Shown here: positions 20,445 through 62,762 of the stretch, in pieces
Position numbering within the stretch: the first letter of the stretch is position 1
Layout of the letters: each line of letters starts with the position of its first letter
Assembly (NCBI GenBank): GCA_964422925.1
Contig: CAYRDC010000006.1
Coordinates: forward strand, 8,854 to 72,853
From: an uncultured Chitinophagales bacterium
Lineage (GTDB): Bacteria; Bacteroidota; Bacteroidia; Chitinophagales; S012-47
Direction of reading: 5' to 3'
DNA: 64,000 bases
The notes under the pieces: generated by a model
Databases searched by the model: none
Told to the model about the DNA's origin: nothing
What the model saw: only the letters and a program-made list of their open reading frames with translations
Program-made: the position numbers and the translations under genes

Positions 20445-21380
20445 TTACAACGAATCCTTTGAACCGGCAGGTCCGCGTTTGCCCAGGCGTTCCAGCGCTA
20501 CGAGCAGTAACATGCCTGCCAGCACGAATCCAAAAGCCCAAAAGGTTTCGGAGGTGGCACCGGGCCAGTGGTAACTGTACCCGCTGATTATTTTTTCCCC
20601 TTTCCGAAGCACCGGTTCACCCTCCGGGCCCAGCAGGAAACGGGCTTCCTTCCAGGGCCAAAGCAAAGCCAGCGATCCGGCTACAAAGCCCGTCAACAGG
20701 GCCGTGGTCAGGTCGTGATAATGACGGAAAATCCAGCCCAGGAACCGTGCGAACGCCAGCAAGCCCACCACCACTCCGGCCAACACAGGCACTAACAGCG
20801 CCCATTTCAGGTTTGCCACTGCCTCGAGCAGCAAGACGTAATTGCCCATGATAATCAGCATAAAGGAACCTGAAAGGCCGGGCAGTATCATACTGCAAAT
20901 GGCCACCACCCCGCAAAGGAACAGGTAGGCCATCCCACTGTTCTCGGAGGCGGGGCTGAACAAAACCAGGCTGGCTGCCAGTGCCATTCCCACGATCAGC
21001 GCAAACACCGCTCCCGGGCTCCAGTACCTGATCTGGCGGCCTACATAAAACACCGAAGCGAGGATCAGCCCCAGGAAAAAGGACCAAAGCCAGACCGGGT
21101 AATGTTCAAACACCCAGGCCAGGGATTTGGCCAGGGTGAATACGCTGGCCAGGATACCCGCGGCCAGCAACAACAGAAATTGAAAATCGATATGGCGGGC
21201 CAGCTGACGGAGTTGACCCCGGAACAACAGTCGAAGCGCTTCCAGGTCAAAAGCGCGCAGGGCATTGATTAGCCGCTCGTAAATACCCGTAATGAAGGCA
21301 ATGGTTCCACCAGATACCCCGGGAATCACATTGGCCGCTCCCATGGCAAATCCTTTCAAAAACCAGTTGAGCACCTTCAT
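20445..21380 (-). CDS. DUF368 family membrane protein (PopT-like polyprenyl-phosphate transporter family)
   Basis: The N-terminus GFAMGAANVIPGVSGGTIAFITGIYERL and the internal repeat LPGLSGSFMLIIMG are the duplicated DUF368 signature. Confidence 0.85.
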   Translation of the reverse strand: MKVLNWFLKGFAMGAANVIPGVSGGTIAFITGIYERLINALRAFDLEALRLLFRGQLRQLARHIDFQFLLLLAAGILASVFTLAKSLAWVFEHYPVWLWSFFLGLILASVFYVGRQIRYWSPGAVFALIVGMALAASLVLFSPASENSGMAYLFLCGVVAICSMILPGLSGSFMLIIMGNYVLLLEAVANLKWALLVPVLAGVVVGLLAFARFLGWIFRHYHDLTTALLTGFVAGSLALLWPWKEARFLLGPEGEPVLRKGEKIISGYSYHWPGATSETFWAFGFVLAGMLLLVALERLGKRGPAGSKDSL

Positions 21381-21398
21381 AAAAAGACATTTGGTACG

Positions 21399-22172
21399 CT
21401 ACGCCCGGGTCCGGTTATCCAGGAATTCAAAAAAGGTATCGCCCCGCAGCCCGATACGAAGGGTTTCCAGCGGGAGTACTTCATTGGGCGCTATATTGCC
21501 CAAGTTTACATTCGGCCCCAGCAGTTTGATAAACCAAACCTGCTGCGCTTTCTTGGGCGCTTCCCAAATGATCATGTCTTCCGGGATCTGCGTCAGTATT
21601 TCATCCACCAGCCCCTGGCGCACTTCCCCGGTTCCGCGGTATATACCGACATTACCGCTTTCCCGGGCTTCGGCAATTACCTTAAACACCCCGGCTTCGA
21701 TCTCGGCTTTCATCAGTTCTATCCACTGGTAAGGCGCGAAAATCTTTTCCGCATCCTTGGAGCCGACTTCCGAAATCACCGTCACGTGCTCTGCCAGCCT
21801 ACGGATATACTCGCATTTCTGGCCATGCTCAATTTCCAAACTCCCGTCCGATACCTCGGCATATTGCATCTTGAATTTGTCCAATATTCGCAGGTAATCC
21901 TCGAACTGGTCGCGGGCAACAAATGCTTCGAACAAAGTGCCTCCGAAAAAAACCGGCATGTCGGCTTCATGATAAACTTTCAGTTTTTCTTCCAGCCGGG
22001 GAGTAACGTAGGAAGTGCCGAAACCAAGCTTAACCACGTCAGTGTAGGGTTCGGCAATGCTTAAAAAATCTTCCACCTGACGAATGCTCAACCCCTTGTC
22101 CATTACCATGGTCAGGCCTTTTTGGCGGGGTTTTGCCGTCCTTTCCGGAATTTGGGTTAATGTGTAGTTCAT
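21399..22172 (-). CDS. phosphosulfolactate synthase (ComA family)
   Basis: ERTAKPRQKGLTMVMDKGLSIRQVEDFLSIAEPYTDVVKLGFGTSYV ... YAEVSDGSLEI matches the ComA TIM-barrel family. Confidence 0.85.
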   Translation of the reverse strand: MNYTLTQIPERTAKPRQKGLTMVMDKGLSIRQVEDFLSIAEPYTDVVKLGFGTSYVTPRLEEKLKVYHEADMPVFFGGTLFEAFVARDQFEDYLRILDKFKMQYAEVSDGSLEIEHGQKCEYIRRLAEHVTVISEVGSKDAEKIFAPYQWIELMKAEIEAGVFKVIAEARESGNVGIYRGTGEVRQGLVDEILTQIPEDMIIWEAPKKAQQVWFIKLLGPNVNLGNIAPNEVLPLETLRIGLRGDTFFEFLDNRTRA

Positions 22173-28395: not shown

Positions 28396-29397
28396 CTAAT
28401 ACAGCCGGGCGGGATAATACCGGAGGTAAAACCGGTACATCCGGTTGAACAGGTACCGGCTCATGTTTTCCCCGCGGGCTCGTTTCCATGAAGACCCCTT
28501 TGGCTCCATGACCGGGTAATCGAAATCCTGGAACACAAACGAAAAGGCTTTGTTCAGATAAGCAACCTCCATGGGGTGAATGGCTGATTTCCACCGGTCG
28601 AGGTTGGATGCGTCAATCCCCGAAAACCTTGTACCGAACACACTGTTGCCGCCCCAGGGCCGGCCCCCGATGCTTGGATTCAGCAGAACCGGGTCGAAAC
28701 CGATCCCAAGGAATTCGCAGGCTTTCCGCAGGGTGCTTTCCGGGTCGCGCACCAGGTCTTCATAACGCATGACAAAGTAGCCGGGAATCAGCGCCCGGTT
28801 ATAGTACAGGAAATAGTAGTTGTTGTAAAAAGTCCGGATCATCCGGTTTATCAAAGGGTACGGTCCGTTGACGCTCCGGAATTTGCGCAGGGACACAAAG
28901 TTGGCATATGGGTTCCGGATTACGTGGATGAATTTCGCCTCCGGGAACCAGCTTTTCAGCAGGGGGACGAATTCCGCGTTTTCGACCGATTTTTCGACAA
29001 AGCGGCTTCCCTTGCTGTCAAACTTTGCCGCGTGCCGGATGCAGTCAAAATACAGGCGCATCAATTCCGGCCCGGCCCGGAAATCAGCCAATGACTCAGG
29101 CCGGAATTTCTCCTGAAAGGCTTCAGGATCGACTAACCCCGAGGCAAAATTGTCGGCATAGGCGTTTTCCTCGGAGGCTGCTTTCCGGATGAATCGGGTA
29201 AACCGTCCGGCCAGGGTTTCCGGATCGTACTTTTGCGGAAGGGAAAACCGGTATTCGTTGTCCACCCAGAAACCGGCCAGTTGAAAGAAATGACTTTCGA
29301 AAGGGATAACAAACAACTCCGGATGCCCGTCCAGCAATGAGCGCATCAAGGTCGTGCCTGACTTATGAACACCTGTTATAAAAATCGGGGCCTGCAT
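28396..29397 (-). CDS. PAPS-dependent sulfotransferase family protein
   Basis: 5'-PSB-like loop GVHKSGTTLMRSLL and 3'-PB-like VIRNPYANFVSL. Size and layout match bacterial Sulfotransfer-type enzymes. Confidence 0.8.
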   Translation of the reverse strand: MQAPIFITGVHKSGTTLMRSLLDGHPELFVIPFESHFFQLAGFWVDNEYRFSLPQKYDPETLAGRFTRFIRKAASEENAYADNFASGLVDPEAFQEKFRPESLADFRAGPELMRLYFDCIRHAAKFDSKGSRFVEKSVENAEFVPLLKSWFPEAKFIHVIRNPYANFVSLRKFRSVNGPYPLINRMIRTFYNNYYFLYYNRALIPGYFVMRYEDLVRDPESTLRKACEFLGIGFDPVLLNPSIGGRPWGGNSVFGTRFSGIDASNLDRWKSAIHPMEVAYLNKAFSFVFQDFDYPVMEPKGSSWKRARGENMSRYLFNRMYRFYLRYYPARLY

Positions 29398-29439: not shown

Positions 29440-30615
29440 TTGACGCAGCGAAAATTACGCATTTTATTTGTCCCAAGCTGGTACCCGGAACCCGGTTATC
29501 CCATCCGGGGCATTTTTATTAAGAACCATGCCCAGTGCCTGAAAGAGGATGCCGACCTGCAGGTATTGTATGCCTGGGGCGGCCCGGGCTTGGACTTCCG
29601 GATTGAAACCAAAACGGATGACGGGATTCCCACTACTTATGTGACCTTTCCTTTCAACGGGAAAAGTAAAACCAGCATTGGCTATATCATTCGCTATCTG
29701 CGTGCCATTCGGAAAGGTTATAAAACCATTATCCAACAGGATTGGGAACCCGATCTGTTCCATGCCCATGTAGCCTACCCGGCCGCCCTGTTCTGCGCCT
29801 GGCAGGCCCGAAAGGAGAAAAAACCCTTCGGCATTACCGAACACCTCGACCTCTACCTCCGCGAAATGCATGGTCTGCAAAAACCGCCCGCATTGGGCAA
29901 ATGGGTGCGGAAAAAACTGGCCGAAAAAGCCGCTTTCATGACCGTGTGCTCCACTTCCATGAAGAAAGCCTATGAATGGATTGGCGTGAAACGCGAAGTC
30001 AGCGTGGTACCGAACAGCATCAATTTCGCAACACCCCCTTCCCCCGGTTTCAGTCAAAAAGAAAAAAAGCAGCTCCTGCACATCTCCACCCTGCGCGACC
30101 ACCAGAAAAATGTGAGCGGCCTGTTGCGCGGCATACACCGCCTGGTGCAGCAGGGCAGAACCGATTTTGAAATGCATATTCTCGGTTCCGGGGATGAGAT
30201 GGAACAGAGGAAACAGCTGGCCCGGGAACTCGGCCTGCTCGGCACTATCGTGTTTTTCCACGGTTTCGTGCCTGAAGAAGAAAAGCAGCGGTTCCTCCGC
30301 GACAGTCATGTGTACGTGATGTTCAGCAATTATGAGGGTTTTTCCGTGGTTACGGCCGAGGCTATCAGTAGCGGCTTACCGGTTATTACCACCCGCTGCG
30401 GAGGCCCGGATGATTTTGTTACGGAAGAAAACGGTTTGGTCATCTCCGTGGGCGATGAAGAAGCCCTGGCCCGGGCCATCAACTACATGCTGGACAACTA
30501 CGAAAAATACGCCCGGATCAAAATGCACGAAGACATGCAGCAACGGTTTGGATGCAAGGCTATAAGCAGGATGTTTATGGAGCTTTATAGGAAAGCTTTA
30601 CCGGAAATTACTTGA
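29440..30615 (+). CDS. glycosyltransferase family 4 (GT-B, group 1)
   Basis: N-terminus LRILFVPSWYPEP. C-terminal half has HGFVPEEE...YVMFSNYEGFSVVTAEAISSGLPVITTRCGGPDDFV (EX7E-type motif). Confidence 0.85.
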   Translation: MTQRKLRILFVPSWYPEPGYPIRGIFIKNHAQCLKEDADLQVLYAWGGPGLDFRIETKTDDGIPTTYVTFPFNGKSKTSIGYIIRYLRAIRKGYKTIIQQDWEPDLFHAHVAYPAALFCAWQARKEKKPFGITEHLDLYLREMHGLQKPPALGKWVRKKLAEKAAFMTVCSTSMKKAYEWIGVKREVSVVPNSINFATPPSPGFSQKEKKQLLHISTLRDHQKNVSGLLRGIHRLVQQGRTDFEMHILGSGDEMEQRKQLARELGLLGTIVFFHGFVPEEEKQRFLRDSHVYVMFSNYEGFSVVTAEAISSGLPVITTRCGGPDDFVTEENGLVISVGDEEALARAINYMLDNYEKYARIKMHEDMQQRFGCKAISRMFMELYRKALPEIT

Positions 30616-31537
30616 TGTAACCGTATTTTCTGAGATTCTTCTCCATGCCCCGCAGGATAACCTGCCGGTAGTATTGTGGCAGATCGGTTTCCCATTTACC
30701 GACAGAAGCCGTGGAAACCGGGTTTTTCAGGTTCTCAAAGGCCTTCATTTTCCCGCGGGAGCCCATTTTTTCAAGGTATTCTGCTTGTTTATCCAATACA
30801 GGTTCAGGGTTTACATCTAAAAAGCGGCAAATGATATCAAGGGTTTTCTCCGGTTCGCTTACAAGGTCCTCGTACTTAACGAGCAGAAAACTGTCTTCCG
30901 AAGTTTTTCTCCGGACCATTTCAATCATCTTCAGGCTGTAATTCCATTTCCTGAGCACATAACGGGTATCTGCCTGTTCATTTTTTTTGAATATGGAAGC
31001 GGCCACATCTCGCCCATCCCGGATCAGCGCGATAAACCGGGCATCCGGGAACACAGGAAATATATACTTGAAATAATCGGTGTTTTTAGGGCTTTTATCT
31101 CCCCATGTAGTGAAGGAAAAACCATGCTGCTTACCATAAGCGGTATAAATATGATCCAGGATGACCCGGAGACTCCGTTGGTTTTTTGGAAGACGGAAAA
31201 GCTCCTCTATTATTTCCCCGGCATTGAGATTCCATTCCATGGTAGCACTTGTCCGGCTAAATTCTCCCACAATAATACTGACCAGGTCTAACCATTCCAG
31301 GTAATTATACAACCGGTATTTGACAATGGTATTGGCCAAGACAAATTGTTCCGGAGGCACCAATAATTGACTGTGCTGGTCGAGCAAAGCTGCCAACAAG
31401 GTTGTACCACTGCGTCCTGAACTCAAAATAAAAAACGGACGGCACGATAATTCTTCATCACGGGCTTGCACAAGATGCCGTTTGGGTAACAAACGGCTAA
31501 TTTGAGTTATAACAGGCAGGAATTTCTCTAGTCTCAT
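30608..31537 (-). CDS. PAPS-dependent sulfotransferase family protein
   Basis: 5'-PSB-like FILSSGRSGTTLLAALL and 3'-PB-like LIRDGRDVAASI. Its 3' end overlaps the convergent GT4 gene by 8 nt. Confidence 0.8.
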   Translation of the reverse strand: MRLEKFLPVITQISRLLPKRHLVQARDEELSCRPFFILSSGRSGTTLLAALLDQHSQLLVPPEQFVLANTIVKYRLYNYLEWLDLVSIIVGEFSRTSATMEWNLNAGEIIEELFRLPKNQRSLRVILDHIYTAYGKQHGFSFTTWGDKSPKNTDYFKYIFPVFPDARFIALIRDGRDVAASIFKKNEQADTRYVLRKWNYSLKMIEMVRRKTSEDSFLLVKYEDLVSEPEKTLDIICRFLDVNPEPVLDKQAEYLEKMGSRGKMKAFENLKNPVSTASVGKWETDLPQYYRQVILRGMEKNLRKYGYIK

Positions 31538-31900
31538 GGAATTACTGATTGTAATGGGGGCGGTGGCAATTCAGTCCTCACCATTTCTAACAATATATTT
31601 TCTACATCACCTTCCGATACCATCAAAAATAAGATTCTCTGGCCTTCGCAAATAATTAGCGGATATTTTGCCGTCTGTCTATAAACAGATTTTTACCTCC
31701 TATTATATATTTAATTGGTTTTTACCTGTCGGACAGCCATCAGAATATCCACAGCAATGAAACACTTAATACACTTTCGGTTTTTTAGATCTGCTTCACC
31801 TTTTCTCGAAAAAGCAACACTGACTCAGTGTGCCATTAACAAAATCTTTATTATTTTTAATCATTAAGTTCCAACCCCTAACTAGCTGCACCTCATTAAT

Positions 31901-34900
31901 ATGAAAAAAATATTCCTGATCCTTCCGTTGCTGTTGCTTCCTCATTTTCTCCTTTCGCAAACTCCATTTATTCGAATTTTTGGTGGACCTGGAACCGATA
32001 TCGGCAATGGAGTGATTCAGGCCTATGATGGCGGATATTGGGTAGTTGGCAGAACTAATTCTTTTGGCGCTGGTGGAACGGATATCATTGTTCTGAAATT
32101 AAACACATCCGGGGTAATTGAATGGGAAAAAACCTATGGCGGTGTGAACAATGAAGGAGGAATCTATGGTGTTTTTGCCACGGAAACCCAAGACCACGGA
32201 CTGGCTGTTGCCTGTGAAACCAAGAGCTTCAATGCCACGCAAAATGATGCATATCTGATCAAAATTGACAGTGTTGGCAATGTACTTTGGGATGCAAGAT
32301 ACGATGCCGGACCCGGAACTTCAGGAGGTGATTACTTCCGGGGCATTAAAGAATTAAGCACAGGAGAACTGCTGTTGACTGGCTCAATCAACAGTGGAGT
32401 TCTTGGACTCTCAGATGCTTTAATCATGAAATTCACTGCATCAGGCAATCTGATATGGAAGAAAATTATTGGCGGTATTTACGTAGATCACATCTACGAT
32501 GTGATCGAATTACCCAATGGCGATTACGCCTTTTTCGGTAATACAGGCACATGGGGCAACGGCTCAAACAATGCCTGGGTTATTAGAACAGATACAAGTG
32601 CAAATCTGGGCTGGGCGAAAGTTTATGCAGGGTCAGGAATTGATAACTTTTCAGAAGGAATACTGACTTCTGACGGTGGATTATTGCTGGGAGGCATTAC
32701 TTCTTCCTACGGTTCCGGGAATTTCGACATTTATCTTGTCAAACTTAGCATTGACGGTACGCTTCAATGGGCAAAAACCTATGGTGGATCAAATCTCGAA
32801 TGGCTGAATGGATTGCAGGAGCTACCTTCGGGCGGGTACTTGTTGAGAGTATATTCAAAATCGTATGGGCCCGGTGAGGATATTTTGCTAATCAGCATCG
32901 ACACTACCGGCAATATTACCTGGAGCAAATCCTATAAAATAATTCAAAGTGGTAGTTCAGGATCCCTGGTAAAAATCAAAGGTGCAATCGATGTAACCAA
33001 TGATGGAGGGTTTATTTTCACCGGATGGGTTATTGACAGCAGTGGATTTGGCGGAAAGGATATCCTTGTATTCAAGTCAGATTCGAGTGCTTATGCTTTG
33101 TGCGACACAGTACTTGTCACAAGCACAACACCGACCGTGCAACCTATTAATGCAAGTCCTTCTTTTACCAATGTAGGGGCAATTCATGATCCATTGACAA
33201 TACATACTTCTCCGACAGTATCCGACACAGCCTCTTGTCCGTGTTTTCAGGTTTCCTCTGCTTTAATCTCCAACGACACCACCATTTGCCAGGGAGACAG
33301 CATTCCTTTGCAGGCTACCGGAGGAACAACTTACAATTGGTCGCCTGCATCGGGATTAAGTTGCAACACTTGCTCCAACCCGGTGGCCAGCCCAAATGTC
33401 ACCACCACCTACACAGTTACCTTTGACCAGGGGCAGGTTTGCGAATCCCAGGACAGCATCACAGTATTTGTACACGTGCCTCCTTCCATCAACTTGGGGG
33501 CTGACACCACCATTTGCTCTTACGACCAGCTCGTACTGGATGCCGGAACGGGTTTTTCCTCTTACCTCTGGGAAGACTCATCCACCACCCAGACGCATAC
33601 CGTGTCGTGGTCCGGTGATACTACAATGATGTTTTATGTAACTGCTACGGATTCCATCGGATGTGCTTCCGCTGATACCATACTGGTCACTTTTGACAAG
33701 CCACCGGTTATTGACCTCGGGCCTGATACCTTGCTGTGTGCGGGCACTCAGTATCTGCTGGATGCGGGACCGGGGTTTGCCAGCTATGTCTGGCAGGATA
33801 AATCAAGCGGGCAGACCTACATGGCTTCCGCGCTGAACGATACGACCATTTTATACACAGTTACCGGAAAGGATTATATAGGTTGTATTTCTTCCGATTC
33901 TGTTTGGATCACCTTTCACAAGCCACCTGTCATCCAACTCGGGCCCGACACGGTGATTTGTTCCGGTGCACAACTGTTGCTGGATGCCGGGCCGGGATTT
34001 GTTTCCTACCTGTGGGAAGACCAATCGACCGGGCAAATCCATATCGTTTCCGCATCCAACGATACTTCCCTGCTATATTACGTGACCGGTACTGATTCGC
34101 AGGGATGCGTTTCTTCGGATACCATCCAGGTTGGATTCCATGTTCCGCCAGCCATAGACCTGGGGCCTGATACTTTGCTTTGCCAGGCTGACACAATACT
34201 GCTGGATGCCGGGCCCGGGTTTACCACATACCTTTGGGAAGACCAGTCAACCGGGCAAACACACCTGGTGTCCAGCACAGCCGACACCGTGCTTCTGTAT
34301 CATGTGACTGCCACGGATAGCCTCGGCTGCACATCTGCAGATTCCATCAGCATTCACTTTCACAATACCCCGTCAATCGACCTCGGGCCCGACACCGTAT
34401 TGTGCGATGGTGGTCAAATCCTGCTGGATGCCGGGCCGGGGTTCAGCCAATACACCTGGCAGGATCAGTCCAGCGGGCAGTTTTTCACCGCTTCAGCCTC
34501 TGGTGACACTACCATCCTGTTTTATGTGACTGCCACGGATAGTCTCGGCTGTACTTCTGCCGACAGTATTGAAGTTTACTTCCATCTTCTTACAGCCATT
34601 CATCTCGGGAATGACACCCTGCTTTGTGCCGGTGAACAATTGCTGCTGGATGCCGGGCCGGGGTTCGCTTCATATGTTTGGGAAGACCAGTCCACCGGGC
34701 AAACCCATATCGCTTCCGCGTCAAACGATACCTCCCTGCTATATTACGTGACCGGTACTGATACGCAGGGATGCGTTTCTTCGGATACTATCCAGGTTGG
34801 ATTCCACGTTCCGCCCGCCATAAACCTGGGGCCTGATACTTTGCTTTGCCAGGCTGACACAATACTGCTGGATGCCGGGCCCGGGTTTACCACATACCTT

Positions 34901-36622
34901 TGGGAAGACCAGTCAACCGGGCAAACACACCTGGTGTCCAGCACAGCCGACACCGTGCTTCTGTATCATGTGACTGCCACGGATAGCCTCGGCTGCACAT
35001 CTGCAGATTCCATCAGCATTCACTTTCACAATACCCCGTCAATCGACCTCGGGCCCGACACCGTATTGTGCGATGGTGGTCAAATCCTGCTGGATGCCGG
35101 GCCGGGGTTCAGCCAATACACCTGGCAGGATCAGTCCAGCGGGCAGTTTTTCACAACTACGGCCACTGGCGACACTTCCATCCTGTATTTTGTTACCGCC
35201 ATGGACAGCCTCGGCTGTACCGCTGCCGACAGTATAGAAGTTCACTTCCATCTTCTTACTGCCATTCATCTCGGGAATGATACCCTGCTGTGTGCCGGTG
35301 AACAATTGCTGCTGGATGCCGGGTCGGGGTTTACTTCTTATGTCTGGGAAGACCAGGCCACCGGGCAAACCCATATTGCCTCGGTTACAGGCGATACCAC
35401 CATGGTTTATTTCGTGATAGCCACAGATTCCGTGGGATGCCAGTCATCAGACACCATCCAGGTCAGCTTCCACCAGGCGCCTGTAATTGACCTCGGGCCC
35501 GACACAACAGCCTGTGCATTGGGGCAGCTGGTATTGGACGCGGGGCCCGGGTTTGTATCTTACGTATGGGAGCACCAGTCCACCGGGCAAACGCATACCG
35601 TGTCAGGACAAAACGGCACCACCAGCACTTATTATGTAACCGCACTGGACTCTTTCGGATGCCTGTCCACAGACACCATTACTGTTTCTTACCTGACCGC
35701 TATCCCGATTAACCTGGGCCCGGACACAATCGTTTGCGGAAACGCTCAATTACTGCTCGATGCCGGACCTGGATTTGCTTCCTACATCTGGGAGGATCAA
35801 TCCACCGGGCAAACGCATCTCGCATACGGTCAGCCCGGAACCATTAACACATATTACGTGACCGCCACTACCCAGGACGGATGCGTGTCAACCGATACCA
35901 TTGTGGTGGAATTCATGGATTACTTATCCATTCACCTGGGACCGGACACCACCATTTGTGAGAACACCCACTTCTACCTGAACGCGGGACCCGGGTTTGT
36001 CTCCTATGTCTGGAATGACCAGACCACCGGGCAAAAGCATCTCGTTACAGGTCAGGGGGGAACTACCACTTTCTATTCTGTGCATGCCATCGATCCAAAT
36101 GGCTGCGAGGCATCAGACAGTATCCTGATTCATTTTCTGACAGTGAATGAAGTCGACCTCGGCCCCGATACCACGATTTGCAATAATGCCTCTTTGGTAC
36201 TGGATGCCGGGCCGGGTTACACGGCCTACCATTGGTCAAACGGAAGCCAGGCCCAGACCATCACCTTCCAGGACACGCTGGGCACCTACACCGTGTACGT
36301 GGATGTGATTGACTCCAACGGCTGCGCGTCTTCCGATACCATTGTGATTACGGTTGACCGTTGCATCGGCCTGGAAACCCCTGCCCTGAACCCGCTGCTT
36401 GACATTTATCCGAACCCGGCTGAAAACCTTCTGTACATCCGGACCGGACGGCCCTGCCGGCTGGAGGTCTGCAATGCCCTCGGGGAAACCGTCCTTCCGC
36501 CTGTTGAACTGGCCGCTGGAACCCGCCAGATGGATATTTCAATGCTGCCGGCCGGCATGTACCTGCTCCGGTTCTCCGGCAAACGGTTCAATGCCACGCA
36601 CAAGCTCATCAAGGAAAAATAA
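31901..36622 (+). CDS. 1573-aa secreted repeat protein (putative adhesin) with T9SS type A C-terminal sorting domain
   Basis: Signal peptide. About 7-8 propeller-like ~50-aa repeats (WEKTYGG, WAKTYGG, WSKSYK) lie in aa 20-440. One divergent unit plus 13 regular 74-aa Cys-pair repeats follow. The last ~75 aa (LDIYPNPAENLLYIRT...GMYLLRFSGKRFNATHKLIKEK) form a type A CTD. Confidence 0.9.
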   Translation: MKKIFLILPLLLLPHFLLSQTPFIRIFGGPGTDIGNGVIQAYDGGYWVVGRTNSFGAGGTDIIVLKLNTSGVIEWEKTYGGVNNEGGIYGVFATETQDHGLAVACETKSFNATQNDAYLIKIDSVGNVLWDARYDAGPGTSGGDYFRGIKELSTGELLLTGSINSGVLGLSDALIMKFTASGNLIWKKIIGGIYVDHIYDVIELPNGDYAFFGNTGTWGNGSNNAWVIRTDTSANLGWAKVYAGSGIDNFSEGILTSDGGLLLGGITSSYGSGNFDIYLVKLSIDGTLQWAKTYGGSNLEWLNGLQELPSGGYLLRVYSKSYGPGEDILLISIDTTGNITWSKSYKIIQSGSSGSLVKIKGAIDVTNDGGFIFTGWVIDSSGFGGKDILVFKSDSSAYALCDTVLVTSTTPTVQPINASPSFTNVGAIHDPLTIHTSPTVSDTASCPCFQVSSALISNDTTICQGDSIPLQATGGTTYNWSPASGLSCNTCSNPVASPNVTTTYTVTFDQGQVCESQDSITVFVHVPPSINLGADTTICSYDQLVLDAGTGFSSYLWEDSSTTQTHTVSWSGDTTMMFYVTATDSIGCASADTILVTFDKPPVIDLGPDTLLCAGTQYLLDAGPGFASYVWQDKSSGQTYMASALNDTTILYTVTGKDYIGCISSDSVWITFHKPPVIQLGPDTVICSGAQLLLDAGPGFVSYLWEDQSTGQIHIVSASNDTSLLYYVTGTDSQGCVSSDTIQVGFHVPPAIDLGPDTLLCQADTILLDAGPGFTTYLWEDQSTGQTHLVSSTADTVLLYHVTATDSLGCTSADSISIHFHNTPSIDLGPDTVLCDGGQILLDAGPGFSQYTWQDQSSGQFFTASASGDTTILFYVTATDSLGCTSADSIEVYFHLLTAIHLGNDTLLCAGEQLLLDAGPGFASYVWEDQSTGQTHIASASNDTSLLYYVTGTDTQGCVSSDTIQVGFHVPPAINLGPDTLLCQADTILLDAGPGFTTYLWEDQSTGQTHLVSSTADTVLLYHVTATDSLGCTSADSISIHFHNTPSIDLGPDTVLCDGGQILLDAGPGFSQYTWQDQSSGQFFTTTATGDTSILYFVTAMDSLGCTAADSIEVHFHLLTAIHLGNDTLLCAGEQLLLDAGSGFTSYVWEDQATGQTHIASVTGDTTMVYFVIATDSVGCQSSDTIQVSFHQAPVIDLGPDTTACALGQLVLDAGPGFVSYVWEHQSTGQTHTVSGQNGTTSTYYVTALDSFGCLSTDTITVSYLTAIPINLGPDTIVCGNAQLLLDAGPGFASYIWEDQSTGQTHLAYGQPGTINTYYVTATTQDGCVSTDTIVVEFMDYLSIHLGPDTTICENTHFYLNAGPGFVSYVWNDQTTGQKHLVTGQGGTTTFYSVHAIDPNGCEASDSILIHFLTVNEVDLGPDTTICNNASLVLDAGPGYTAYHWSNGSQAQTITFQDTLGTYTVYVDVIDSNGCASSDTIVITVDRCIGLETPALNPLLDIYPNPAENLLYIRTGRPCRLEVCNALGETVLPPVELAAGTRQMDISMLPAGMYLLRFSGKRFNATHKLIKEK
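33480..36360 (+). repeat. 13 tandem 222-bp (74-codon) coding repeats
   Basis: Each unit reads roughly I-D-L-G-P-D-T-x-x-C-x(4)-L-L-D-A-G-P-G-F-x-S-Y-x-W-E-D-Q-S-T-G-Q-T-H ... Y-Y-V-T-x-T-D-S-x-G-C-x-S-x-D-T-I-x-V-x-F. The period was counted from the translation. Confidence 0.85.
34070..35386 (+). repeat. higher-order 666-bp (three-unit) tandem duplication inside the repeat array
   Basis: 34158-34488 is base-for-base identical to 34824-35154 (331 bp, compared line by line). The flanks diverge gradually. Antisense shadow ORFs 34078-34287 and 34744-34953 are near-identical for the same reason. Confidence 0.9.
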
Positions 36623-36650
36623 GCCGGGCGGGAACCACCCCGTCTGATTC

Positions 36651-38144
36651 TTACTTGTTCAGGAACCGCAGCATTTTGCGGAAGGCTCCGTCCACCACCT
36701 GGTTCACATCTTCCGACACGTTCCAGAAATATATCCCCGGCACGTACAGCAAAAGGATGACCACCGACCGGATGAATATATCGAGAACTACCGGATGGAA
36801 ACGGGGCAAAACAGTGGCAGCTGCAAAAGCGGCCAGGGCCACCAGCAGGGCTTTCAGGGTTCCCGGGCTGAAGGGTTGTATCCGCCACCGGGTCAGGATA
36901 AAAAGAAATTTCACAAGATTAAAGAGGCTGATCGAAAGCGCGGAAGCCATGGCAGCCCCGGTAATGCCCCAGCGCGGGATGAAAAGGTAATTGGTCAGTA
37001 CGGTCACCCCGGCCAGCATCAGCACCGCGTAAAAGTTGAACCGGTAATGCCGGCTGTTCACGATAATTTCACTGTTGTTCCCTGCCATCATATTGACCAG
37101 TTTTCCCAGGGCAATGAATAACACCACGTATTTCCCGGCCATGTATACCGACCCATTGGGAATCAGCGAAAAGATAGCGTCTATATTGCACCAGATGCCC
37201 AGGAAAAACAGCAGCCCGGCCACGGTTTGGTTCAGGGATGCTTTTTGATAGATGGTTCGGATCGTGGCGAGGTCCTGTTTAGCCCAAGCCCGGGCAATCA
37301 GGGGTGTCGTGATCTGGCTGATGGACCTGCGGGGCAGCTCAATGGCCAGGCCCAGGAAAAAAGCCACGCTGTAAATACCGGTTTTAGCCAGTCCGGCCAG
37401 GGCGCTGAGCATTACCGTATCAATGGTGCCCACAATGAAATTGCCGGTGCTGGACAGCATGGAAAACAAACCGAACCACGTCATATCCCTTCGCATGGAC
37501 GGTTTAGCCAATCCACGCGGCCAGGCAAAACGCAAAGGCCGGGAAGCATGGGTATATGCCAGCAGTAATGCCGTAATCAGGCCATAGGCTCCGGCATACA
37601 GCAGCAGCAAGCGGTCAAAGCCGATCAACGAGAAATAGAACAACAGCAGCGCCAGCATGATGAACAGGCGGAGGAAAAACTCCCGGAGCAGGTTGGGCAC
37701 CACAATGCGCAGCAACGTACGGTCATAGGCGGCCAGCACCGCGTTGTACATCATAAAAAAAGTCAGCGGAACCAGCCAGTGATAATATTGCAGGATCAGT
37801 GGAGATTTTTCGCGGAACAGTTCCAGCAGTTCCCCCCGGAACAACCAGAGCAGCCCGAATAAAACGGCAAAGGAAACGAGTGGGACAAACAATACGGTAA
37901 AAAGGAATTTCCTGCCGGCTTCCTGCTCCTGGAAATAGGGATGGAACCGGATAATGATATTGGTCATGCCCATCTGTGCGAAGGGAACCAGGAGGGCGGC
38001 TGTGCTCAACAGGAAGCGCACGAGTCCGAATTGTTCGGGCTTCAGCGCCATGGGCATGAAGATTACCGCGTTCAGGTAACCGAGGGCAACCCCGAGGTAC
38101 AGGATGATGGTTGCAGGAATGGATTGCCGCTTTACAATGCCCAT
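36651..38144 (-). CDS. oligosaccharide flippase (Wzx/MOP-type polysaccharide biosynthesis protein)
   Basis: About 12-14 TM helices. MGIVKRQSIPATIILYLGVALGYLNAVIF is a typical N-terminus. I use the ATG at 38144 rather than the track start at 38207. Confidence 0.8.
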   Translation of the reverse strand: MGIVKRQSIPATIILYLGVALGYLNAVIFMPMALKPEQFGLVRFLLSTAALLVPFAQMGMTNIIIRFHPYFQEQEAGRKFLFTVLFVPLVSFAVLFGLLWLFRGELLELFREKSPLILQYYHWLVPLTFFMMYNAVLAAYDRTLLRIVVPNLLREFFLRLFIMLALLLFYFSLIGFDRLLLLYAGAYGLITALLLAYTHASRPLRFAWPRGLAKPSMRRDMTWFGLFSMLSSTGNFIVGTIDTVMLSALAGLAKTGIYSVAFFLGLAIELPRRSISQITTPLIARAWAKQDLATIRTIYQKASLNQTVAGLLFFLGIWCNIDAIFSLIPNGSVYMAGKYVVLFIALGKLVNMMAGNNSEIIVNSRHYRFNFYAVLMLAGVTVLTNYLFIPRWGITGAAMASALSISLFNLVKFLFILTRWRIQPFSPGTLKALLVALAAFAAATVLPRFHPVVLDIFIRSVVILLLYVPGIYFWNVSEDVNQVVDGAFRKMLRFLNK

Positions 38145-38261
38145 AAGCCAAGGGTATGGCGGCAAATTTACCACAAAAGTGCTGCGGCAGTGGAATGATT
38201 TAAGCACAGCTTTTCATAATCAGCCGGATTTGATTAACATTGTGCAAACACTTTAAGCGGT

Positions 38262-38900
38262 ATGCAACTGCCTGACCTGAACCATGTATTGCTGCTGGCC
38301 CCCCACCCGGATGACGGGGAATTCGGCTGCGGGGCTACCCTGAAAAAGCTTACTGACCAAGGTACAACCGTGCATTACGCAGCCTTTTCGCCCTGCATCA
38401 AATCCCTCCCGGAAGGGCTGCCGGAAGACACTTTGTTTACCGAGCTTAACAAAGCGACCCAATGGCTGGGTATCCCGGAAAAGCAAATCATAACCTATCG
38501 GTTCCCGGTCAGGGAATTCCCCGCCCACCGGCAGGAAATCCTCGAAACCCTGATTAACCTGCGCAAACAGATAAACCCCGGGCTGGTGTTGCTTCCGAAT
38601 ACGAAGGACATCCACCAGGACCACCAGGTGATCAGCCGGGAAGGTATCCGGGCTTTCAAGCAAACCCGGATACTCGGGTATGAATTGCCCTGGAACAGCT
38701 TTACATTTACCAATACCTGCCATTCCGTAGTGGAGCGAAGCCATATCGAAGCCAAAATGGCCGCTCTCAAGGAGTATCATTCCCAGGAGTTCCGGTCATA
38801 CCACGATGAAGAATTCTTTTTCGGCCTGGCCCGTACCCGCGGTACGCAGATCGGGGTGCGCTATGCCGAGGCCTTTGAAGTGATCCGCTGGATTCTTTAG
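38262..38900 (+). CDS. PIG-L/LmbE family deacetylase
   Basis: VLLLAPHPDDGEFGCGATL plus a downstream HQDH motif (DIHQDHQV) form the zinc-site signature of PIG-L deacetylases. Confidence 0.85.
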   Translation: MQLPDLNHVLLLAPHPDDGEFGCGATLKKLTDQGTTVHYAAFSPCIKSLPEGLPEDTLFTELNKATQWLGIPEKQIITYRFPVREFPAHRQEILETLINLRKQINPGLVLLPNTKDIHQDHQVISREGIRAFKQTRILGYELPWNSFTFTNTCHSVVERSHIEAKMAALKEYHSQEFRSYHDEEFFFGLARTRGTQIGVRYAEAFEVIRWIL

Positions 38901-40009
38901 CCCAAAGCGCGAAGCTGATCGCTCACTTCCTTTGTCAATGATCCATGTGCCATATCCTGAATAGCCCAGTTTTCCGGGAAGGAAATCGTATCGCGCAGGC
39001 CCTGTTTGGGATCGATAATGTGGAAGGCCGTACGATTGGTGTCGATGGCCAGAACCAGGGAGCCCAAGGGAATGGCATTCTGAAGCCATTCCATGTCTTG
39101 CAATGCCTCCGGTTTGCCGGGTAAGGCAGAAAAATCATACCGGGTTTCTTCCTGCAAACCCAGCACCATTATTTCTCCGGAAGCCGTGCTGGTGGCCATA
39201 TACCCGTCCAGGTAAACCCGGCCACCGTGGGGATTCTTCAGGCCGGTGATCAGCGGAGTGGCTACTCCGGCCACGGGATTGATACGGTAAACCGCCCCTT
39301 CATGAAAGAAAGTGGCCAGCCAGTAAGCCGGGTCATGCCCGTCATATACCACGGAATTGATAAAAGCCGCCCGCTGGGCCGTGGGAAGAACCTGTTTCTC
39401 CGGTTCCTGGATCAAGCGGCAGGCTATGCCGTCTTCCTCAAACTGTTTTGCCCGGAGCGGATTGCGTGTCAGCTTCAGCGGTTCTCCGGTCTCCGGGTCC
39501 ACAGCCGTGTCGAATCCGTAGTCCCAGGCAAACCATTCGTGCCGAACCGCGTGTTCCACCATCGACCAGTCAAAAATGGCATCAAAACCGGAAGAGGAAA
39601 TGAGAATATGGTGCCCGCCCCGGCTGATGGCCACGGTATGGATATAGCTGAACCAGGGATGTTCTATGGTCTCGGTTCGCTCCCCGTCCAGTACATACAC
39701 CTTGTTTTCCGCGGCCAGGGCCAGCCAGCCTCCCCTGATATCGATACCACGAGGCTCCTGCAGTTTGCAAAGCACTTCCTGCTCCGTGAGCCGGCCGTTT
39801 TCCAGCACCACCCGGGCAATGCCCCCCGTGGCAGTAGGCCTGCGTTCCACGCTCCCCGCCCGACCGGATTTATTGGCCCGGCTGGCCAGGTAACGCTCGC
39901 GGATAGCCTCCAAATCAAAACTCTTTATGGTCAGCATCAGCTCGATGCGGCCGTAAAAGCCGTGCGATTCAAGGAATGTGGCAATATCGATATGCTTGGT
40001 TGAATTCAT
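38897..40009 (-). CDS. hypothetical protein, last gene of the YfhO-GT4 operon
   Basis: 370-aa ORF with ordinary composition. It shares 4-nt start/stop overlaps with the GT4 gene upstream and with the convergent PIG-L gene. The competing + ORF 39227-40003 is R/G/P/H-rich, as shadow ORFs are. Confidence 0.6.
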   Translation of the reverse strand: MNSTKHIDIATFLESHGFYGRIELMLTIKSFDLEAIRERYLASRANKSGRAGSVERRPTATGGIARVVLENGRLTEQEVLCKLQEPRGIDIRGGWLALAAENKVYVLDGERTETIEHPWFSYIHTVAISRGGHHILISSSGFDAIFDWSMVEHAVRHEWFAWDYGFDTAVDPETGEPLKLTRNPLRAKQFEEDGIACRLIQEPEKQVLPTAQRAAFINSVVYDGHDPAYWLATFFHEGAVYRINPVAGVATPLITGLKNPHGGRVYLDGYMATSTASGEIMVLGLQEETRYDFSALPGKPEALQDMEWLQNAIPLGSLVLAIDTNRTAFHIIDPKQGLRDTISFPENWAIQDMAHGSLTKEVSDQLRALG

Positions 40010-41304
40010 CGGGACAGTTTATCCAGTATGCCCGCCAGCTTTCCGGTCATGGCTTTGCGGCTGAATTGCCGGTAGCCTTCCCCTTCATAAGCCGGGACCA
40101 GGCCCCCATTGGCTTTCCAGAGTTCAAAACTACGGAGTATAAATTCCCGGATGGCTTCCCGGCCAAAATAATCCATCATAGGGTCGCAGCCAGCCTGCTC
40201 AAGCAGCCTGGCAGCATCGCCACCCGAAGGGCCGAGGGCCAGTATCCGGCTCCCGGAAGCCATATACTCAAATATTTTTCCGGTCAGAATAAGGTGGTTG
40301 TTTTCCGCTTGCGGCACGATAAACAGCAAGAGATCTGCTGCCTGCATCCGGGCTACCGCTTCCTGGTGCGGCACGAAAGGTTCTGTGACAACATATTTTC
40401 CGAGCCCGGCTGAATTAATGGACTGTAAAATGCCCGGGTCTACGATGCCCGTAAACCGTAGTTCCAGCTTTCCGGCAAACTCCGGATCCTTCTTTGCCAC
40501 CCCGGCCAGGATTTCCCACAACACCGGCACGTCCTGATTCGGTTTGTAATTGCCAGTATAGGTGATCCGGAATTTTTCATGAGGTTTCTTTTCAGGCGGC
40601 TGAAAATCGGCTTCGTCATACCCGTTAAAAATGAGTTCGACCTGCCGGCTCCGCCCATGGAATTCTTCCAGCAGGCCGGGGCTGATGACAGTAACGGCAT
40701 CCGCACCGGCCAACACGCTGTTTTCCAGTCGCTGGTCTTTCGTCCGGGTTCGTTCAGACCGCGGGAAATAGGCATTGTAATACACGGTGGTCCAGGGATC
40801 GCGGAAATCGGCCACCCATGGCATGCCCAGCTTCTTCAGGCGCAGGCCCGCCAGATGGGTGCTGTGGGGCGGCCCGGTGGTGATGACAGCATCCGCCCCG
40901 TTTTCCCGGATAAATCGTTTGGCAGCCCGGTAAGCATAGGGCATCCAACCCTTCCGCGCGTCCGGCACAAAGAAATTCGCACGGATATACCGGGCAAGGT
41001 ATTGCACGGGCGAACGGCTGTCGCGGTAGCCTATCATACCTACCGAAACCGATTTCCCCTTCTTCCCGGTCAGGCGGTTATAGAGTGTGTAGGGTTCAAA
41101 GGTTTTGGTTTTGATCACATTCACCCCTTCGGGGATATCCTCCTCGAGCGTAGGGTCGAGGTAGGGATAAGAGCCCCTTGCCGGAGTGATTACCACGGGT
41201 TCCCAGCCAAACCCGCGCAGGTATTTGCAGAATTTCAGGAATCGCTGCACGCCCGGCCCTCCGGCAGGAGGCCAGTAATATGTCAGGATGAGCACTTTTT
41301 TCAT
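40006..41304 (-). CDS. glycosyltransferase (GT4-like, GT-B fold)
   Basis: MKKVLILTYYWPPAGGPGVQRFLKF is a typical N-terminus. The C-terminal half has LLFIVPQAENNHLILTGKIFEYMASGSRILALGP. It has 4-nt overlaps on both sides. Confidence 0.8.
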   Translation of the reverse strand: MKKVLILTYYWPPAGGPGVQRFLKFCKYLRGFGWEPVVITPARGSYPYLDPTLEEDIPEGVNVIKTKTFEPYTLYNRLTGKKGKSVSVGMIGYRDSRSPVQYLARYIRANFFVPDARKGWMPYAYRAAKRFIRENGADAVITTGPPHSTHLAGLRLKKLGMPWVADFRDPWTTVYYNAYFPRSERTRTKDQRLENSVLAGADAVTVISPGLLEEFHGRSRQVELIFNGYDEADFQPPEKKPHEKFRITYTGNYKPNQDVPVLWEILAGVAKKDPEFAGKLELRFTGIVDPGILQSINSAGLGKYVVTEPFVPHQEAVARMQAADLLLFIVPQAENNHLILTGKIFEYMASGSRILALGPSGGDAARLLEQAGCDPMMDYFGREAIREFILRSFELWKANGGLVPAYEGEGYRQFSRKAMTGKLAGILDKLSR

Positions 41305-62639: not shown

Positions 62640-62762
62640 GTACCAAACTTTAAAAGAATCCCACACGGTATTTAACAGACAGGATTGTAATATTAGGGAA
62701 ATTCTCCCGTACATAAAAATGAATTTTGTTAAGAATGCAACCCCCGCTGAAGGTTAATCCGG

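What the first reader, a model, noticed from the sequence alone, without database searches (positions are those of the whole stretch)
33480..36360. The repeat array is saturated with matches to the Bacteroidota O-glycosylation sequon D-(S/T)-(A/I/L/V/M/T)
Established: Bacteroides and relatives O-glycosylate exported proteins at D-(S/T)-(A/I/L/V/M/T). Seen: conserved positions of the repeat are themselves sequon matches (GPDTL, ADTIL, GDTTI, TDSLG, SADSI, SSDTI). My hand count over the 13 units is 41 matches, between 2 and 5 per 74-aa unit. Unit 4/7 has five: DTL, DTI, DTV, DSL and DSI. Either the fold happens to use D-T-hydrophobic strand starts, or the protein is a dense glycan carrier. The second reading would make the surrounding glycan-enzyme genes functionally meaningful.
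Basis: partly seen in the sequence, partly recalled or inferred. Interest (0 to 1): 0.6.

Follow-up and report, generated by a model that had tools for sequence, protein, structure and literature searches.

The report
Sequon-rich Ig-like repeat surface protein
A secreted Bacteroidota surface protein made of 13 tandem 74-residue beta-sandwich repeats carries 41 matches to the phylum's O-glycosylation motif. The motif is built into the repeat's fold across the whole domain family, so the protein is probably sugar-coated by the ordinary general system rather than being a special glycan carrier served by its neighbouring genes.

Summary
ORF 31901-36622 (+, 1573 aa) holds 13 units of exactly 74 aa (DNA 33476-36361) with 41 D-(S/T)-(A/I/L/V/M/T) matches, 2-5 per unit. 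Composition predicts 8.5, and none of 5000 shuffles exceeded 20. Cytoplasmic proteins in the window have 40-fold lower density, so this is not a compositional artefact.

The 41 matches are not independent. They fall in two invariant columns (26 matches) and a few variable columns (15). In 285 homologous units from 79 Bacteroidota loci, both invariant Asp are 98% conserved, the next residue is Thr/Ser in 80-83%, and the third residue is a buried hydrophobic. The Asp persists when Ser/Thr is lost, so the motif is fold-embedded and family-wide (about 2.1 per unit).

Glycosylation is still likely but unproven. The protein is a Sec/T9SS cargo. Exported proteins in the window are 2-fold sequon-enriched and cytoplasmic ones 2-fold depleted. 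D-specific enrichment persists at variable positions, and conservation patterns place the Ser/Thr at exposed positions. Related T9SS proteins (GhpA, TfsB) are heavily O-glycosylated.

No evidence ties the adjacent glycan genes to this protein. Verdict: a new member of a known kind.

The parts
31901..36622 (+). Whole gene: 1573-aa secreted T9SS cargo protein (signal peptide, propeller-like head, 14 Ig_7/PKD-like domains, type A CTD)
   Evidence: ORF. Pfam Ig_7 PF19081 E 8.4e-37 (125.8 bits, cut-off 27.3, 9 stretches) and Por_Secre_tail. TIGR04183.
31901..31957 (+). Sec signal peptide, aa 1-19 (MKKIFLILPLLLLPHFLLS|QTPF); Gln at +1 fits the Bacteroidota Q-rule
   Evidence: Read directly from the sequence. 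Q-rule as described in PMC10653852 (abstract). No signal-peptide predictor was available.
31961..33253 (+). N-terminal beta-propeller-like region (delta-60 / DUF5122-type repeats), aa 21-451; 4 sequon matches vs 1.9 expected
   Evidence: Weak DUF5122 and TIGR02608 hits. 2835 homologues at <=38% identity, many with T9SS CTDs and DUF5122. Counts.
33254..33475 (+). Divergent 14th Ig_7 unit, aa 452-525 (ISNDTTICQGDSIPL...ESQDSITVFVH) with 3 sequon matches
   Evidence: Best Pfam Ig_7 stretch 457-528. Sequence. Counts.
33476..36361 (+). Array of 13 x 74-aa (222-nt) Ig_7/PKD-like units, aa 526-1487, carrying 41 D[ST][AILVMT] matches. Invariant site 1: Asp at aa 535+74k. Invariant site 5: Asp at aa 592+74k (1479 in unit 13). 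Facultative sites: Asp 573, 647, 795, 869, 1017, 1165 (col 48); 584, 806, 880, 1028, 1102, 1176 (col 59); 764, 986 (col 17); 1458
   Evidence: Single-unit AlphaFold model pLDDT 80.7 with six strands. Foldseek TM 0.58-0.69 to PKD domains.
36404..36619 (+). T9SS type A C-terminal sorting domain, aa 1502-1573; no sequon match
   Evidence: PF18962 36 bits (cut-off 27). TIGR04183 36.3 bits (cut-off 23). Count.

Best explanation
The gene encodes a Sec- and T9SS-exported cell-surface protein. It has a propeller-like head on a stalk of 14 small disulfide-containing beta-sandwich (Ig_7/PKD-like) domains and ends in a type A sorting domain.

The sequon saturation is inherited from the domain family. Each domain has two nearly invariant Asp residues. 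One sits just before the first modelled strand (LGxD-T-x-[IL]-C). The other lies in the last strand (S-D-[ST]-[IV]-x-[VI]). Each is followed by a polar, outward-facing Thr/Ser and then a buried aliphatic residue. That structural template happens to spell D-(S/T)-(A/I/L/V/M/T).

Because the protein passes through the periplasm of a Bacteroidota cell, the general O-glycosylation system most likely glycosylates many of these exposed Ser/Thr residues before T9SS export. This particular protein has also gained up to three facultative sites per unit. The result would be a glycan-coated, protease-resistant stalk.

Shown: the architecture, the motif statistics, family-wide conservation, and the predicted strand positions. 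Inferred: exposure of Ser/Thr, actual glycosylation, and the stalk function.
For: - Architecture.
- Enrichment over composition, specific to D.
- Family-wide conservation: D98/T80 at site 1 and D98/(T47+S36)/I-V-L 97% at site 5 in 285 units. This is unchanged when seed-matching units are excluded (D98/T73; D98/82)..
- The Asp persists without Ser/Thr in 50 and 48 units.
- Columns 69, 71 and 73 are about 100% hydrophobic. Column 68 is polar. Column 11 substitutes to Q/E/K/R.
- AF2 strands start at T14, T21 and T52; D70-S71-I72 lies in the last strand. The fold is PKD-like.
- Sequons in the window are 2.0x expected in exported proteins (P 1e-5) and 0.53x in cytoplasmic ones.
- D-specific 2.4x enrichment at non-invariant positions across the family, and D/ST co-occurrence at column 17/18 (OR 2.9, p 1e-4).
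- Closest solved homologue is GhpA (E 2e-28 with the family consensus), whose Ig-like domains all show putative O-glycan density.
- In T. forsythia, 18 T9SS cargo proteins carry 120 sites and TfsB has 19 of 20 occupied. Motif Ser/Thr is 'generally nearly fully substituted'.
Against: - No glycan was or can be observed here.
- Ser/Thr exposure is inferred from conservation patterns and DSSP strings, not from computed accessibility. The region around site 1 has the lowest model confidence (pLDDT about 56).
- In P. gingivalis, surface T9SS cargo is selected against O-glycosylation (PMC8729774), so lineage matters, and this lineage is an unnamed metagenomic bacterium.
- Thr-only usage at site 1 and Asp conservation independent of Ser/Thr show the motif does not need glycosylation to be explained.
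- Units that lose a conserved sequon do not gain one elsewhere.
- The one GhpA glycan site named in the preprint (Thr-3075) maps outside the two conserved columns by rough register.
Confidence: 0.6

Rival explanations
1. Pure fold feature. The D-T/S-hydrophobic triplets are structural only (Asp as turn, cap or Ca2+ ligand; Thr as a beta-branched strand starter). The protein is not appreciably O-glycosylated, because the domains fold or form disulfides too fast, the sites are sterically occluded, or this lineage avoids glycosylating surface cargo.
For: The Asp is 98% conserved even where Ser/Thr is absent. Site 1 uses T 80% and S 1%. The third position is a buried aliphatic residue, as any strand would require. 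The nearest folds are PKD domains, some of which bind Ca2+ through Asp (4aqo title). P. gingivalis shows negative selection against O-glycosylation of abundant surface cargo. No compensatory gain of sequons was found.
Against: Ser/Thr at about 80% in exposed positions is far above what a polar strand position needs, and the substitutes (Q, E, K, R, A, N, D) show no strict structural requirement. D-specific (not N or E) enrichment persists at variable positions. Exported proteins in this window are sequon-enriched and cytoplasmic ones depleted. In studied species motif sites in exported proteins are nearly always occupied. The GhpA Ig-like domains appear glycosylated.
Confidence: 0.25
2. Dedicated glycan carrier. 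The array evolved as a scaffold for dense glycosylation, and the flanking glycan genes (sulfotransferases, GT4s, Wzx-like flippase, PIG-L, YfhO-like and TMEM260-like GT-C proteins) make or attach its specific glycan.
For: The gene is embedded among glycan genes. This protein has more sequons per unit (3.15) than the family mean (2.1) through three facultative columns. Two GT-C-type membrane proteins lie nearby. One is TMEM260-like with TPR, and the human homologue O-mannosylates Ig-like IPT domains. The YfhO-like protein has faint similarity to PgfM1/M2 of an adhesin glycosylation system.
Against: The gene is transcribed on the opposite strand to both immediate neighbours (divergent from the sulfotransferase, convergent with Wzx). 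All NCBIfam hits for the neighbours are far below cut-offs and generic. The cluster lacks LFG hallmarks: no metG in 64 kb and only two GT4 genes. Homologous repeat proteins are scattered across many genomes. No orthologue (<=38% identity for the head, about 50% for single units) or syntenic locus was found to show conserved linkage. Known Bacteroidota O-glycosylation is general, not substrate-linked.
Confidence: 0.1
3. Compositional or chance artefact of a D/S/T-rich repeat.
For: The array is rich in T (13.5%), S (9.5%) and D (9.0%). The repeats inflate the count.
Against: 41 observed against 8.5 expected, with a maximum of 20 in 5000 shuffles. Only D shows enrichment and the reversed motif is not enriched. 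The same columns are conserved in 285 units from 79 loci. Cytoplasmic proteins have 0.11 per 100 aa.
Confidence: 0.02

Closest known systems
Tannerella forsythia S-layer glycoproteins TfsA/TfsB and other O-glycosylated T9SS cargo
   Same: Sec plus T9SS type A CTD cargo in Bacteroidota, rich in D(S/T)(A/I/L/V/M/T) sites. TfsB has 19 of 20 predicted sites occupied, and 18 cargo proteins carry 120 sites (PMC8550257).
   Different: No sequence homology was tested or claimed. Those are S-layer proteins, whereas this is a propeller head with a 14-domain Ig_7 stalk. Sequon density here (41 in 962 aa) is higher and periodic. No glycoproteomic data exist.
GhpA grappling-hook protein of Aureispira sp. 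CCB-QB1 (PDB 9flp and related entries)
   Same: It is the closest solved relative of the repeat: E 2.5e-4 with the window profile, 2e-28 with the family consensus, and 1e-17 with the N-terminal half of the unit. It is a T9SS substrate made of tandem Ig-like repeats with disulfides. Cryo-EM shows putative branched O-glycans on all Ig-like domains.
   Different: GhpA is 5898 aa with 52 repeats of about 83 aa, an N-terminal hook, and adjacent PorP/PorE homologues. The C-terminal half of our unit (the TD..GC..SD[ST]I region) does not hit GhpA. The named glycan site Thr-3075 does not map to our conserved columns by rough register. The head domain and neighbours differ here.
Pfam PF19081 Ig_7 (Ig-like domain, CHU_C associated) in large Bacteroidota T9SS proteins
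   Same: HMM match well above threshold. Conserved Cys pair, W and Y. Tandem arrays that end in T9SS CTDs. A sibling architecture (propeller, Ig_7 units, CHU_C) occurs in L032.
   Different: This is a sub-family with an LGxDT...SD[ST]I signature. The CTD here is type A rather than CHU_C type B.
PKD domains (e.g. V. cholerae PrtV PKD1 4l9d; C. histolyticum ColG/ColH PKD 2y72, 4aqo)
   Same: Best structural matches of the single-unit model (TM 0.58-0.69, prob 1.0). Small beta-sandwich spacer domains in secreted proteins.
   Different: Foldseek E-values are only 0.015-0.08 and identity 15-21%. The PKD WxFGDG signature is absent. Those hosts have no D-S/T glycosylation.
Bacteroides fragilis LFG (general O-glycosylation) locus
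   Same: The neighbourhood has a Wzx-type flippase and GT genes.
   Different: There is no metG, only two GT4 genes, the strands are mixed, and there are two sulfotransferases, PIG-L and GT-C proteins (LFG definition from PMC12871550). It is not filed as LFG.
Human TMEM260 / IPT-domain O-mannosylation
   Same: A TMEM260-like GT-C with a TPR domain is encoded 10 kb away. TMEM260 modifies Ser/Thr on strands of Ig-like domains. Bacteroidota O-glycans start with mannose.
   Different: This is purely an analogy. No link between this bacterial gene and the repeat protein was tested.

Membership tests
Pfam PF19081 Ig_7 / PKD-like beta-sandwich repeat | HMM match above the gathering threshold | tested here: met
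   125.8 bits against a 27.3 cut-off, E 8.4e-37, 9 stretches.
Pfam PF19081 Ig_7 / PKD-like beta-sandwich repeat | All-beta sandwich fold of about 70-85 residues | tested here: met
   AF2 single unit: pLDDT 80.7, six strands. Foldseek TM 0.58-0.69 to PKD domains, though E is only about 0.02.
Pfam PF19081 Ig_7 / PKD-like beta-sandwich repeat | Conserved Cys pair forming an intradomain disulfide | tested here: inconclusive
   C14 and C63 are invariant in all 13 units and 91-93% conserved in 285 homologues. Bond formation is not testable.
T9SS type A cargo | C-terminal Por_Secre_tail / TIGR04183 domain above cut-off | tested here: met
   PF18962 36.0 bits (cut-off 27); TIGR04183 36.3 bits (cut-off 23), aa 1502-1572.
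T9SS type A cargo | N-terminal Sec signal peptide | tested here: met
   MKKIFLILPLLLLPHFLLS|Q, by inspection. No predictor was run.
T9SS type A cargo | Host genome encodes T9SS machinery | not testable with these tools
   Only a 64-kb window of a 76.6-kb metagenomic contig is available. Three further CTD-bearing cargo genes lie in the window.
Substrate of the Bacteroidota general O-glycosylation system | Organism belongs to Bacteroidota | tested here: met
   Type A and type B T9SS CTDs and SprB repeats are present in the window. All best 80 repeat homologues are in Bacteroidota genomes; the one 'Rhizobium' label is a 32% GC contig with a CHU_C protein.
Substrate of the Bacteroidota general O-glycosylation system | Protein exported beyond the cytoplasm | tested here: met
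   Signal peptide plus T9SS CTD.
Substrate of the Bacteroidota general O-glycosylation system | D-(S/T)-(A/I/L/V/M/T) motif present | tested here: met
   48 matches, 41 in the array; 46 in the array with the extended motif.
Substrate of the Bacteroidota general O-glycosylation system | Motif Ser/Thr solvent-accessible | tested here: inconclusive
   Column 68 lies between 98-100% hydrophobic columns 69, 71 and 73 and is itself polar. Column 11 is replaced by Q/E/K/R. Strand positions come from AF2. Model coordinates and accessibility values were not available.
Substrate of the Bacteroidota general O-glycosylation system | Glycan actually attached to the motif Ser/Thr | not testable with these tools
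   This requires glycoproteomics. The only indirect support is the 2.0x vs 0.53x sequon asymmetry between exported and cytoplasmic proteins.
LFG-type O-glycosylation locus (for the neighbouring genes) | metG followed by wzx | tested here: not met
   No Met-tRNA synthetase is found among the 42 annotated ORFs, only ProRS at 9551-11026. A Wzx-like gene is present at 36651-38207.
LFG-type O-glycosylation locus (for the neighbouring genes) | Series of glycosyltransferases ending in two conserved GTs | tested here: inconclusive
   Only two GT4 genes (29440-30615, 40006-41304), on opposite strands. NCBIfam hits are all far below cut-offs. No reference LFG sequences were available for comparison.
GhpA-type grappling hook | Homologous Ig-like repeats | tested here: met
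   E 2.5e-4 (window profile) and 2e-28 (family consensus).
GhpA-type grappling hook | N-terminal hook domain, about 50 repeats, adjacent PorP/PorE homologues | tested here: not met
   The head is a delta-60/DUF5122-like propeller. There are 14 repeats. The neighbours are a sulfotransferase and Wzx.

The most novel reading that the evidence does not exclude
This Ig_7 sub-family could be an evolved 'glyco-module'. Its strand-start D-T/S triplets would have been fixed because they let a membrane GT-C enzyme glycosylate beta-sandwich domains. The TMEM260-like GT-C with TPR encoded 10 kb away would then be the still-unidentified initiating O-mannosyl/oligosaccharyl transferase of the Bacteroidota general O-glycosylation system. 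The human homologue of that enzyme O-mannosylates strands of Ig-like IPT domains.
Probability: 0.07. Interest if true: 0.85.

Novelty: new member of a known kind. Interest (0 to 1): 0.35.

Why it matters
If the array is glycosylated as predicted, it would carry about one glycan per 23 residues. At the 1.4-1.7 kDa per glycan seen in other species, that is roughly 55-70 kDa of sugar on a 106-kDa stalk. This would be among the densest bacterial O-glycoprotein designs.

It also shows that a widespread Bacteroidota T9SS stalk domain has two glycosylation-competent triplets wired into its fold. That makes the family a convenient natural test bed. It could show whether the Bacteroidota O-glycosylation motif recognises strand starts of beta-sandwich domains, and how glycans contribute to the stability of surface filaments.

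The practical lesson for genome scans is this: sequon counts in repeat proteins must be judged per alignment column and against the domain family. Adjacency to glycan genes is not evidence for a dedicated pathway when the glycosylation system is general.

Tried and rejected
- Tandem Repeats Finder found nothing in 30000-40000, because most units are only 55-64% identical at the DNA level. The array was defined at the protein level instead.
- An exact-sequence look-up of the protein found no record. MetK placed the window on JGI metagenome 3300023444, contig Ga0256747_1000053, but gave no taxonomy.
- A profile search of the 5.8-billion-protein set returned only 15 short fragments.
- The N-terminal region search returned 2835 homologues, all <=38% identical, so there is no orthologue and no synteny test.
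- A metagenome scan with the Wzx-like protein found only three relatives at 30-34% identity on short contigs. Conservation of the gene neighbourhood could therefore not be assessed.
- The two-domain AlphaFold model was mediocre (pLDDT 67), and its Foldseek hits were generic tandem adhesin domains. The single-domain model was better (80.7), but its PDB matches had E >= 0.015.
- Three attempts to read residue-level alignments to GhpA were cut off by the output limit. I could not check whether the GhpA glycan sites align with columns 11 and 68.
- A test for compensation (units lacking a conserved sequon gaining one elsewhere) was negative: weak positive correlation, within-locus permutation P 0.93.
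- Rejected: compositional artefact; filing the neighbourhood as an LFG locus; GhpA orthology; the 'Rhizobium' homologue as evidence for the family outside Bacteroidota.
- The F. johnsoniae O-glycoproteome paper is not in the library.
Full report
WHAT IS THERE. The finding lies inside one long ORF, window 31901-36622 (+), 1573 aa. The protein starts with a typical signal peptide (MKKIFLILPLLLLPHFLLS|QTPF). The Gln after the likely cleavage site fits the Bacteroidota Q-rule (PMC10653852). Next comes about 430 aa of delta-60/DUF5122-like propeller repeats. Then follow one divergent and 13 regular Ig_7 units (Pfam PF19081, E 8.4e-37). The protein ends in a T9SS type A sorting domain (PF18962 and TIGR04183, both above cut-off). 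The window comes from a JGI metagenome contig. It also encodes three other T9SS cargo proteins, two of them with CHU_C domains and SprB/PKD/Ig_7 repeats. The organism is therefore a member of the Bacteroidota.

CHECK OF THE OBSERVATION. There are 41 D[ST][AILVMT] matches in aa 527-1487. They sit in 13 units spaced exactly 74 aa apart (DNA 33476-36361), 2-5 per unit, and units 4 and 7 each have five. Composition predicts 8.5, and 5000 shuffles gave a mean of 8.6 and a maximum of 20. Among all X[ST][AILVMT] triplets only X = D is enriched (4.8x; the next is 1.5x; N and E have 0 matches). The reversed motif is not enriched. Density is 4.26 per 100 aa, against 0.30 in the other ORFs and 0.11 in cytoplasmic proteins.

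The 41 matches are not 41 independent events. They occupy two invariant columns (col 10, LGxD-T-x, 13/13; col 67, S-D-[ST]-I, 13/13), three facultative columns (col 48, 6; col 59, 6; col 17, 2), and one other position. Most units are old copies (55-64% nt identity). One 3-unit block was recently duplicated (unit 4 vs 7 99%, 5 vs 8 92%, 3 vs 6 83%).

THE MOTIF IS A FAMILY TRAIT. A scan of one genome per species found 511 relatives of the unit. The best 80 are all in Bacteroidota genomes (Bacteroidales and Bacteroidia MAGs, Chitinophaga, Flavobacteriales, Saprospiraceae, Cyclobacteriaceae, Kapaibacterium). The single 'Rhizobium' record is a 32% GC contig encoding a CHU_C T9SS protein with the same propeller plus Ig_7 architecture, so it is mislabelled.

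From these loci I extracted 285 distinct near-full-length units with an HMM of the window's units.
- Column 10 is D in 98%, column 11 is T in 80% (S 1%), and column 12 is A/I/L/V/M/T in 85%.
- Column 67 is D in 98%, column 68 is T 47% / S 36%, and column 69 is I/V/L in 97% (100% sequon-compatible).
- Excluding every unit that matches the search seeds changes little (D98/T73; D98/82%).
- The family averages 2.1 sequons per unit, and the window protein has 3.15.

Two features show that the Asp residues serve the fold. They remain in the 50 and 48 units where Ser/Thr has been replaced (by Q/E/K/R, or by E/A/D/N). And site 1 is almost never Ser, although the glycosylation system accepts Ser at least as well as Thr (PMC12871550).

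STRUCTURE. A single-unit AlphaFold model (19-row alignment) reached pLDDT 80.7 and pTM 0.67, with six strands. The two-unit model was weaker (pLDDT 67) but gave the same strand register. The best PDB matches are PKD domains (PrtV, ColG/ColH, KIAA1837; TM 0.58-0.69, E 0.015-0.08).
- The Thr of sites at columns 11, 18 and 49 is the first residue of a strand, with the Asp just outside it.
- The column 59-61 site sits in the F-G hairpin.
- D67-S/T68-I69 lies within the last strand.

Columns 69, 71 and 73 are 98-100% hydrophobic. Columns 68, 70 and 72 are polar and variable. Column 11 is only 6% hydrophobic and is replaced by long polar residues. The hydroxyl residues are therefore probably outward-facing and the +1 residues buried. 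This is an inference, and the site 1 region is the least confident part of the model.

IS IT GLYCOSYLATED? This cannot be shown here, but several lines make it likely.
1. The protein crosses the periplasm, where the general system acts, and T9SS cargo can be heavily modified. In T. forsythia 18 cargo proteins carry 120 sites, and TfsB has 19 of 20 predicted sites occupied (PMC8550257). The 2025 review states that motif Ser/Thr are generally nearly fully substituted.
2. In this window, exported and membrane proteins other than the target have 46 sequons against 22.7 expected (2.0x, P 1e-5). Cytoplasmic proteins have 10 against 18.8 (0.53x). This asymmetry is reported as characteristic of Bacteroidota.
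3. Across the family, after masking the two invariant sites, D[ST][AILVMT] is still the most over-represented of the 20 X[ST][AILVMT] triplets (2.4x; N 1.03, E 0.76). D and S/T also co-occur at the facultative columns (OR 2.9, p 1e-4; OR 2.5; OR 1.8). These figures are not corrected for phylogeny.
4. The closest solved relative is GhpA, the T9SS grappling-hook protein of Aureispira (E 2e-28 with the family consensus). [quoted passage not shown]

Against this:
- P. gingivalis avoids sequons in abundant surface cargo.
- There is no compensatory gain of sequons in units that lack a conserved one.
- The only GhpA site named (Thr-3075) does not map to columns 11 or 68 by rough register.

THE NEIGHBOURING GLYCAN GENES. 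The gene sits among several glycan-related genes: two sulfotransferases, two GT4 glycosyltransferases, a Wzx-like flippase, a PIG-L deacetylase, a YfhO-like GT-C protein, a methyltransferase, an epimerase and a TMEM260-like GT-C/TPR protein. Four points argue against a functional link.
- The gene is divergent from the upstream sulfotransferase and convergent with Wzx, so it is not co-transcribed with either.
- The NCBIfam hits are generic and far below cut-offs.
- The LFG signature (metG-wzx-GT series) is absent.
- No orthologue of the protein or close relative of the cluster could be found to test conserved linkage.

The Bacteroidota system is general, so dense sequons do not by themselves make adjacent glycan genes meaningful. 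I rate the 'dedicated carrier' reading at about 0.1.

MECHANISM PROPOSED.
- Shown: a Sec/T9SS cargo with a propeller head and a 14-domain PKD/Ig_7-like stalk. Each domain has an invariant Asp / exposed Thr-Ser / buried aliphatic triplet at the start of the first modelled strand and in the last strand. Both triplets are family-wide.
- Inferred: these triplets are read as sequons in the periplasm, and the extra facultative sites in this protein raise the load to 2-5 glycans per 74 residues. The resulting coat would stiffen the stalk and protect it, and the type A CTD would be replaced by a lipopolysaccharide anchor, as in other type A cargo.

VERDICT. This is a new member of a known kind: a sequon-rich, probably O-glycosylated T9SS repeat protein. 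The modestly new point is that two sequon-competent triplets are hard-wired into this Ig_7 sub-family across the phylum. Interest 0.35. The most novel reading still open links the strand-start motif to the nearby TMEM260-like GT-C as the missing transferase. I rate it about 0.07 probable, but it would be important if true.

Noticed in passing
window 47016-50231 (-): 1071-aa TMEM260-like/DUF2723 GT-C membrane protein (PF11028, E 2e-67) with a C-terminal TPR. The human homologue O-mannosylates strands of Ig-like IPT domains. Bacteroidota O-glycans begin with mannose, and their O-oligosaccharyltransferase is still unidentified. This makes it a candidate worth testing, but nothing here links it to the repeat protein.
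   Followed up: partly
window 41301-43994 (-): 897-aa YfhO-like GT-C membrane protein. Its C-terminus has faint similarity (E about 1e-4, far below cut-off) to PgfM1/PgfM2 of the Streptococcus mutans adhesin-glycosylation machinery.
   Followed up: no
window 28396-29397 (-) and 30608-31537 (-): Two sulfotransferase genes flank a GT4 gene immediately upstream of the repeat gene. This suggests that the local cluster makes a sulfated glycan.
   Followed up: no
window 38897-40009 (-): 370-aa ORF inside the glycan cluster with no Pfam or NCBIfam match.
   Followed up: no
window 57044-59713 (-) and 59727-62714 (-): Two adjacent type B (CHU_C) T9SS cargo genes with SprB, PKD and Ig_7 repeats. Their sequon counts are 7 vs 3.6 expected and 12 vs 3.6 expected. 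Sequon enrichment therefore extends to other surface proteins of this organism.
   Followed up: partly
L032 634-4113 (contig CALRLQ020000001.1, labelled Rhizobium sp. Q54 MAG): The contig segment is 32% GC. It encodes a 1159-aa protein with a propeller-like head, LGxDT...SD[ST]I units and a CHU_C T9SS signal. It is almost certainly a mislabelled or contaminant Bacteroidota contig.
   Followed up: yes
window 33476-36361; family column 9-11: The family consensus LGNDTT overlaps a eukaryote-type N-X-T sequon (column 9 is N in 53% of homologous units). The array has 8 N-X-S/T matches, 5 of them NDT. N-X-S/T N-glycosylation of T9SS substrates has been reported in Cytophaga hutchinsonii.
   Followed up: no
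window 33920-35251 (units 3-8): Recent three-unit (666-nt) duplication inside an otherwise old array: unit 4 vs 7 99%, 5 vs 8 92% and 3 vs 6 83% nt identity. Unit 9 also resembles unit 6 (82%).
   Followed up: yes
window 20445-22172 (-): ComA-type phosphosulfolactate synthase next to a VCA0040-like undecaprenyl-phosphate translocase-like gene. This may relate to sulfonolipid or sulfated-glycan metabolism.
   Followed up: no
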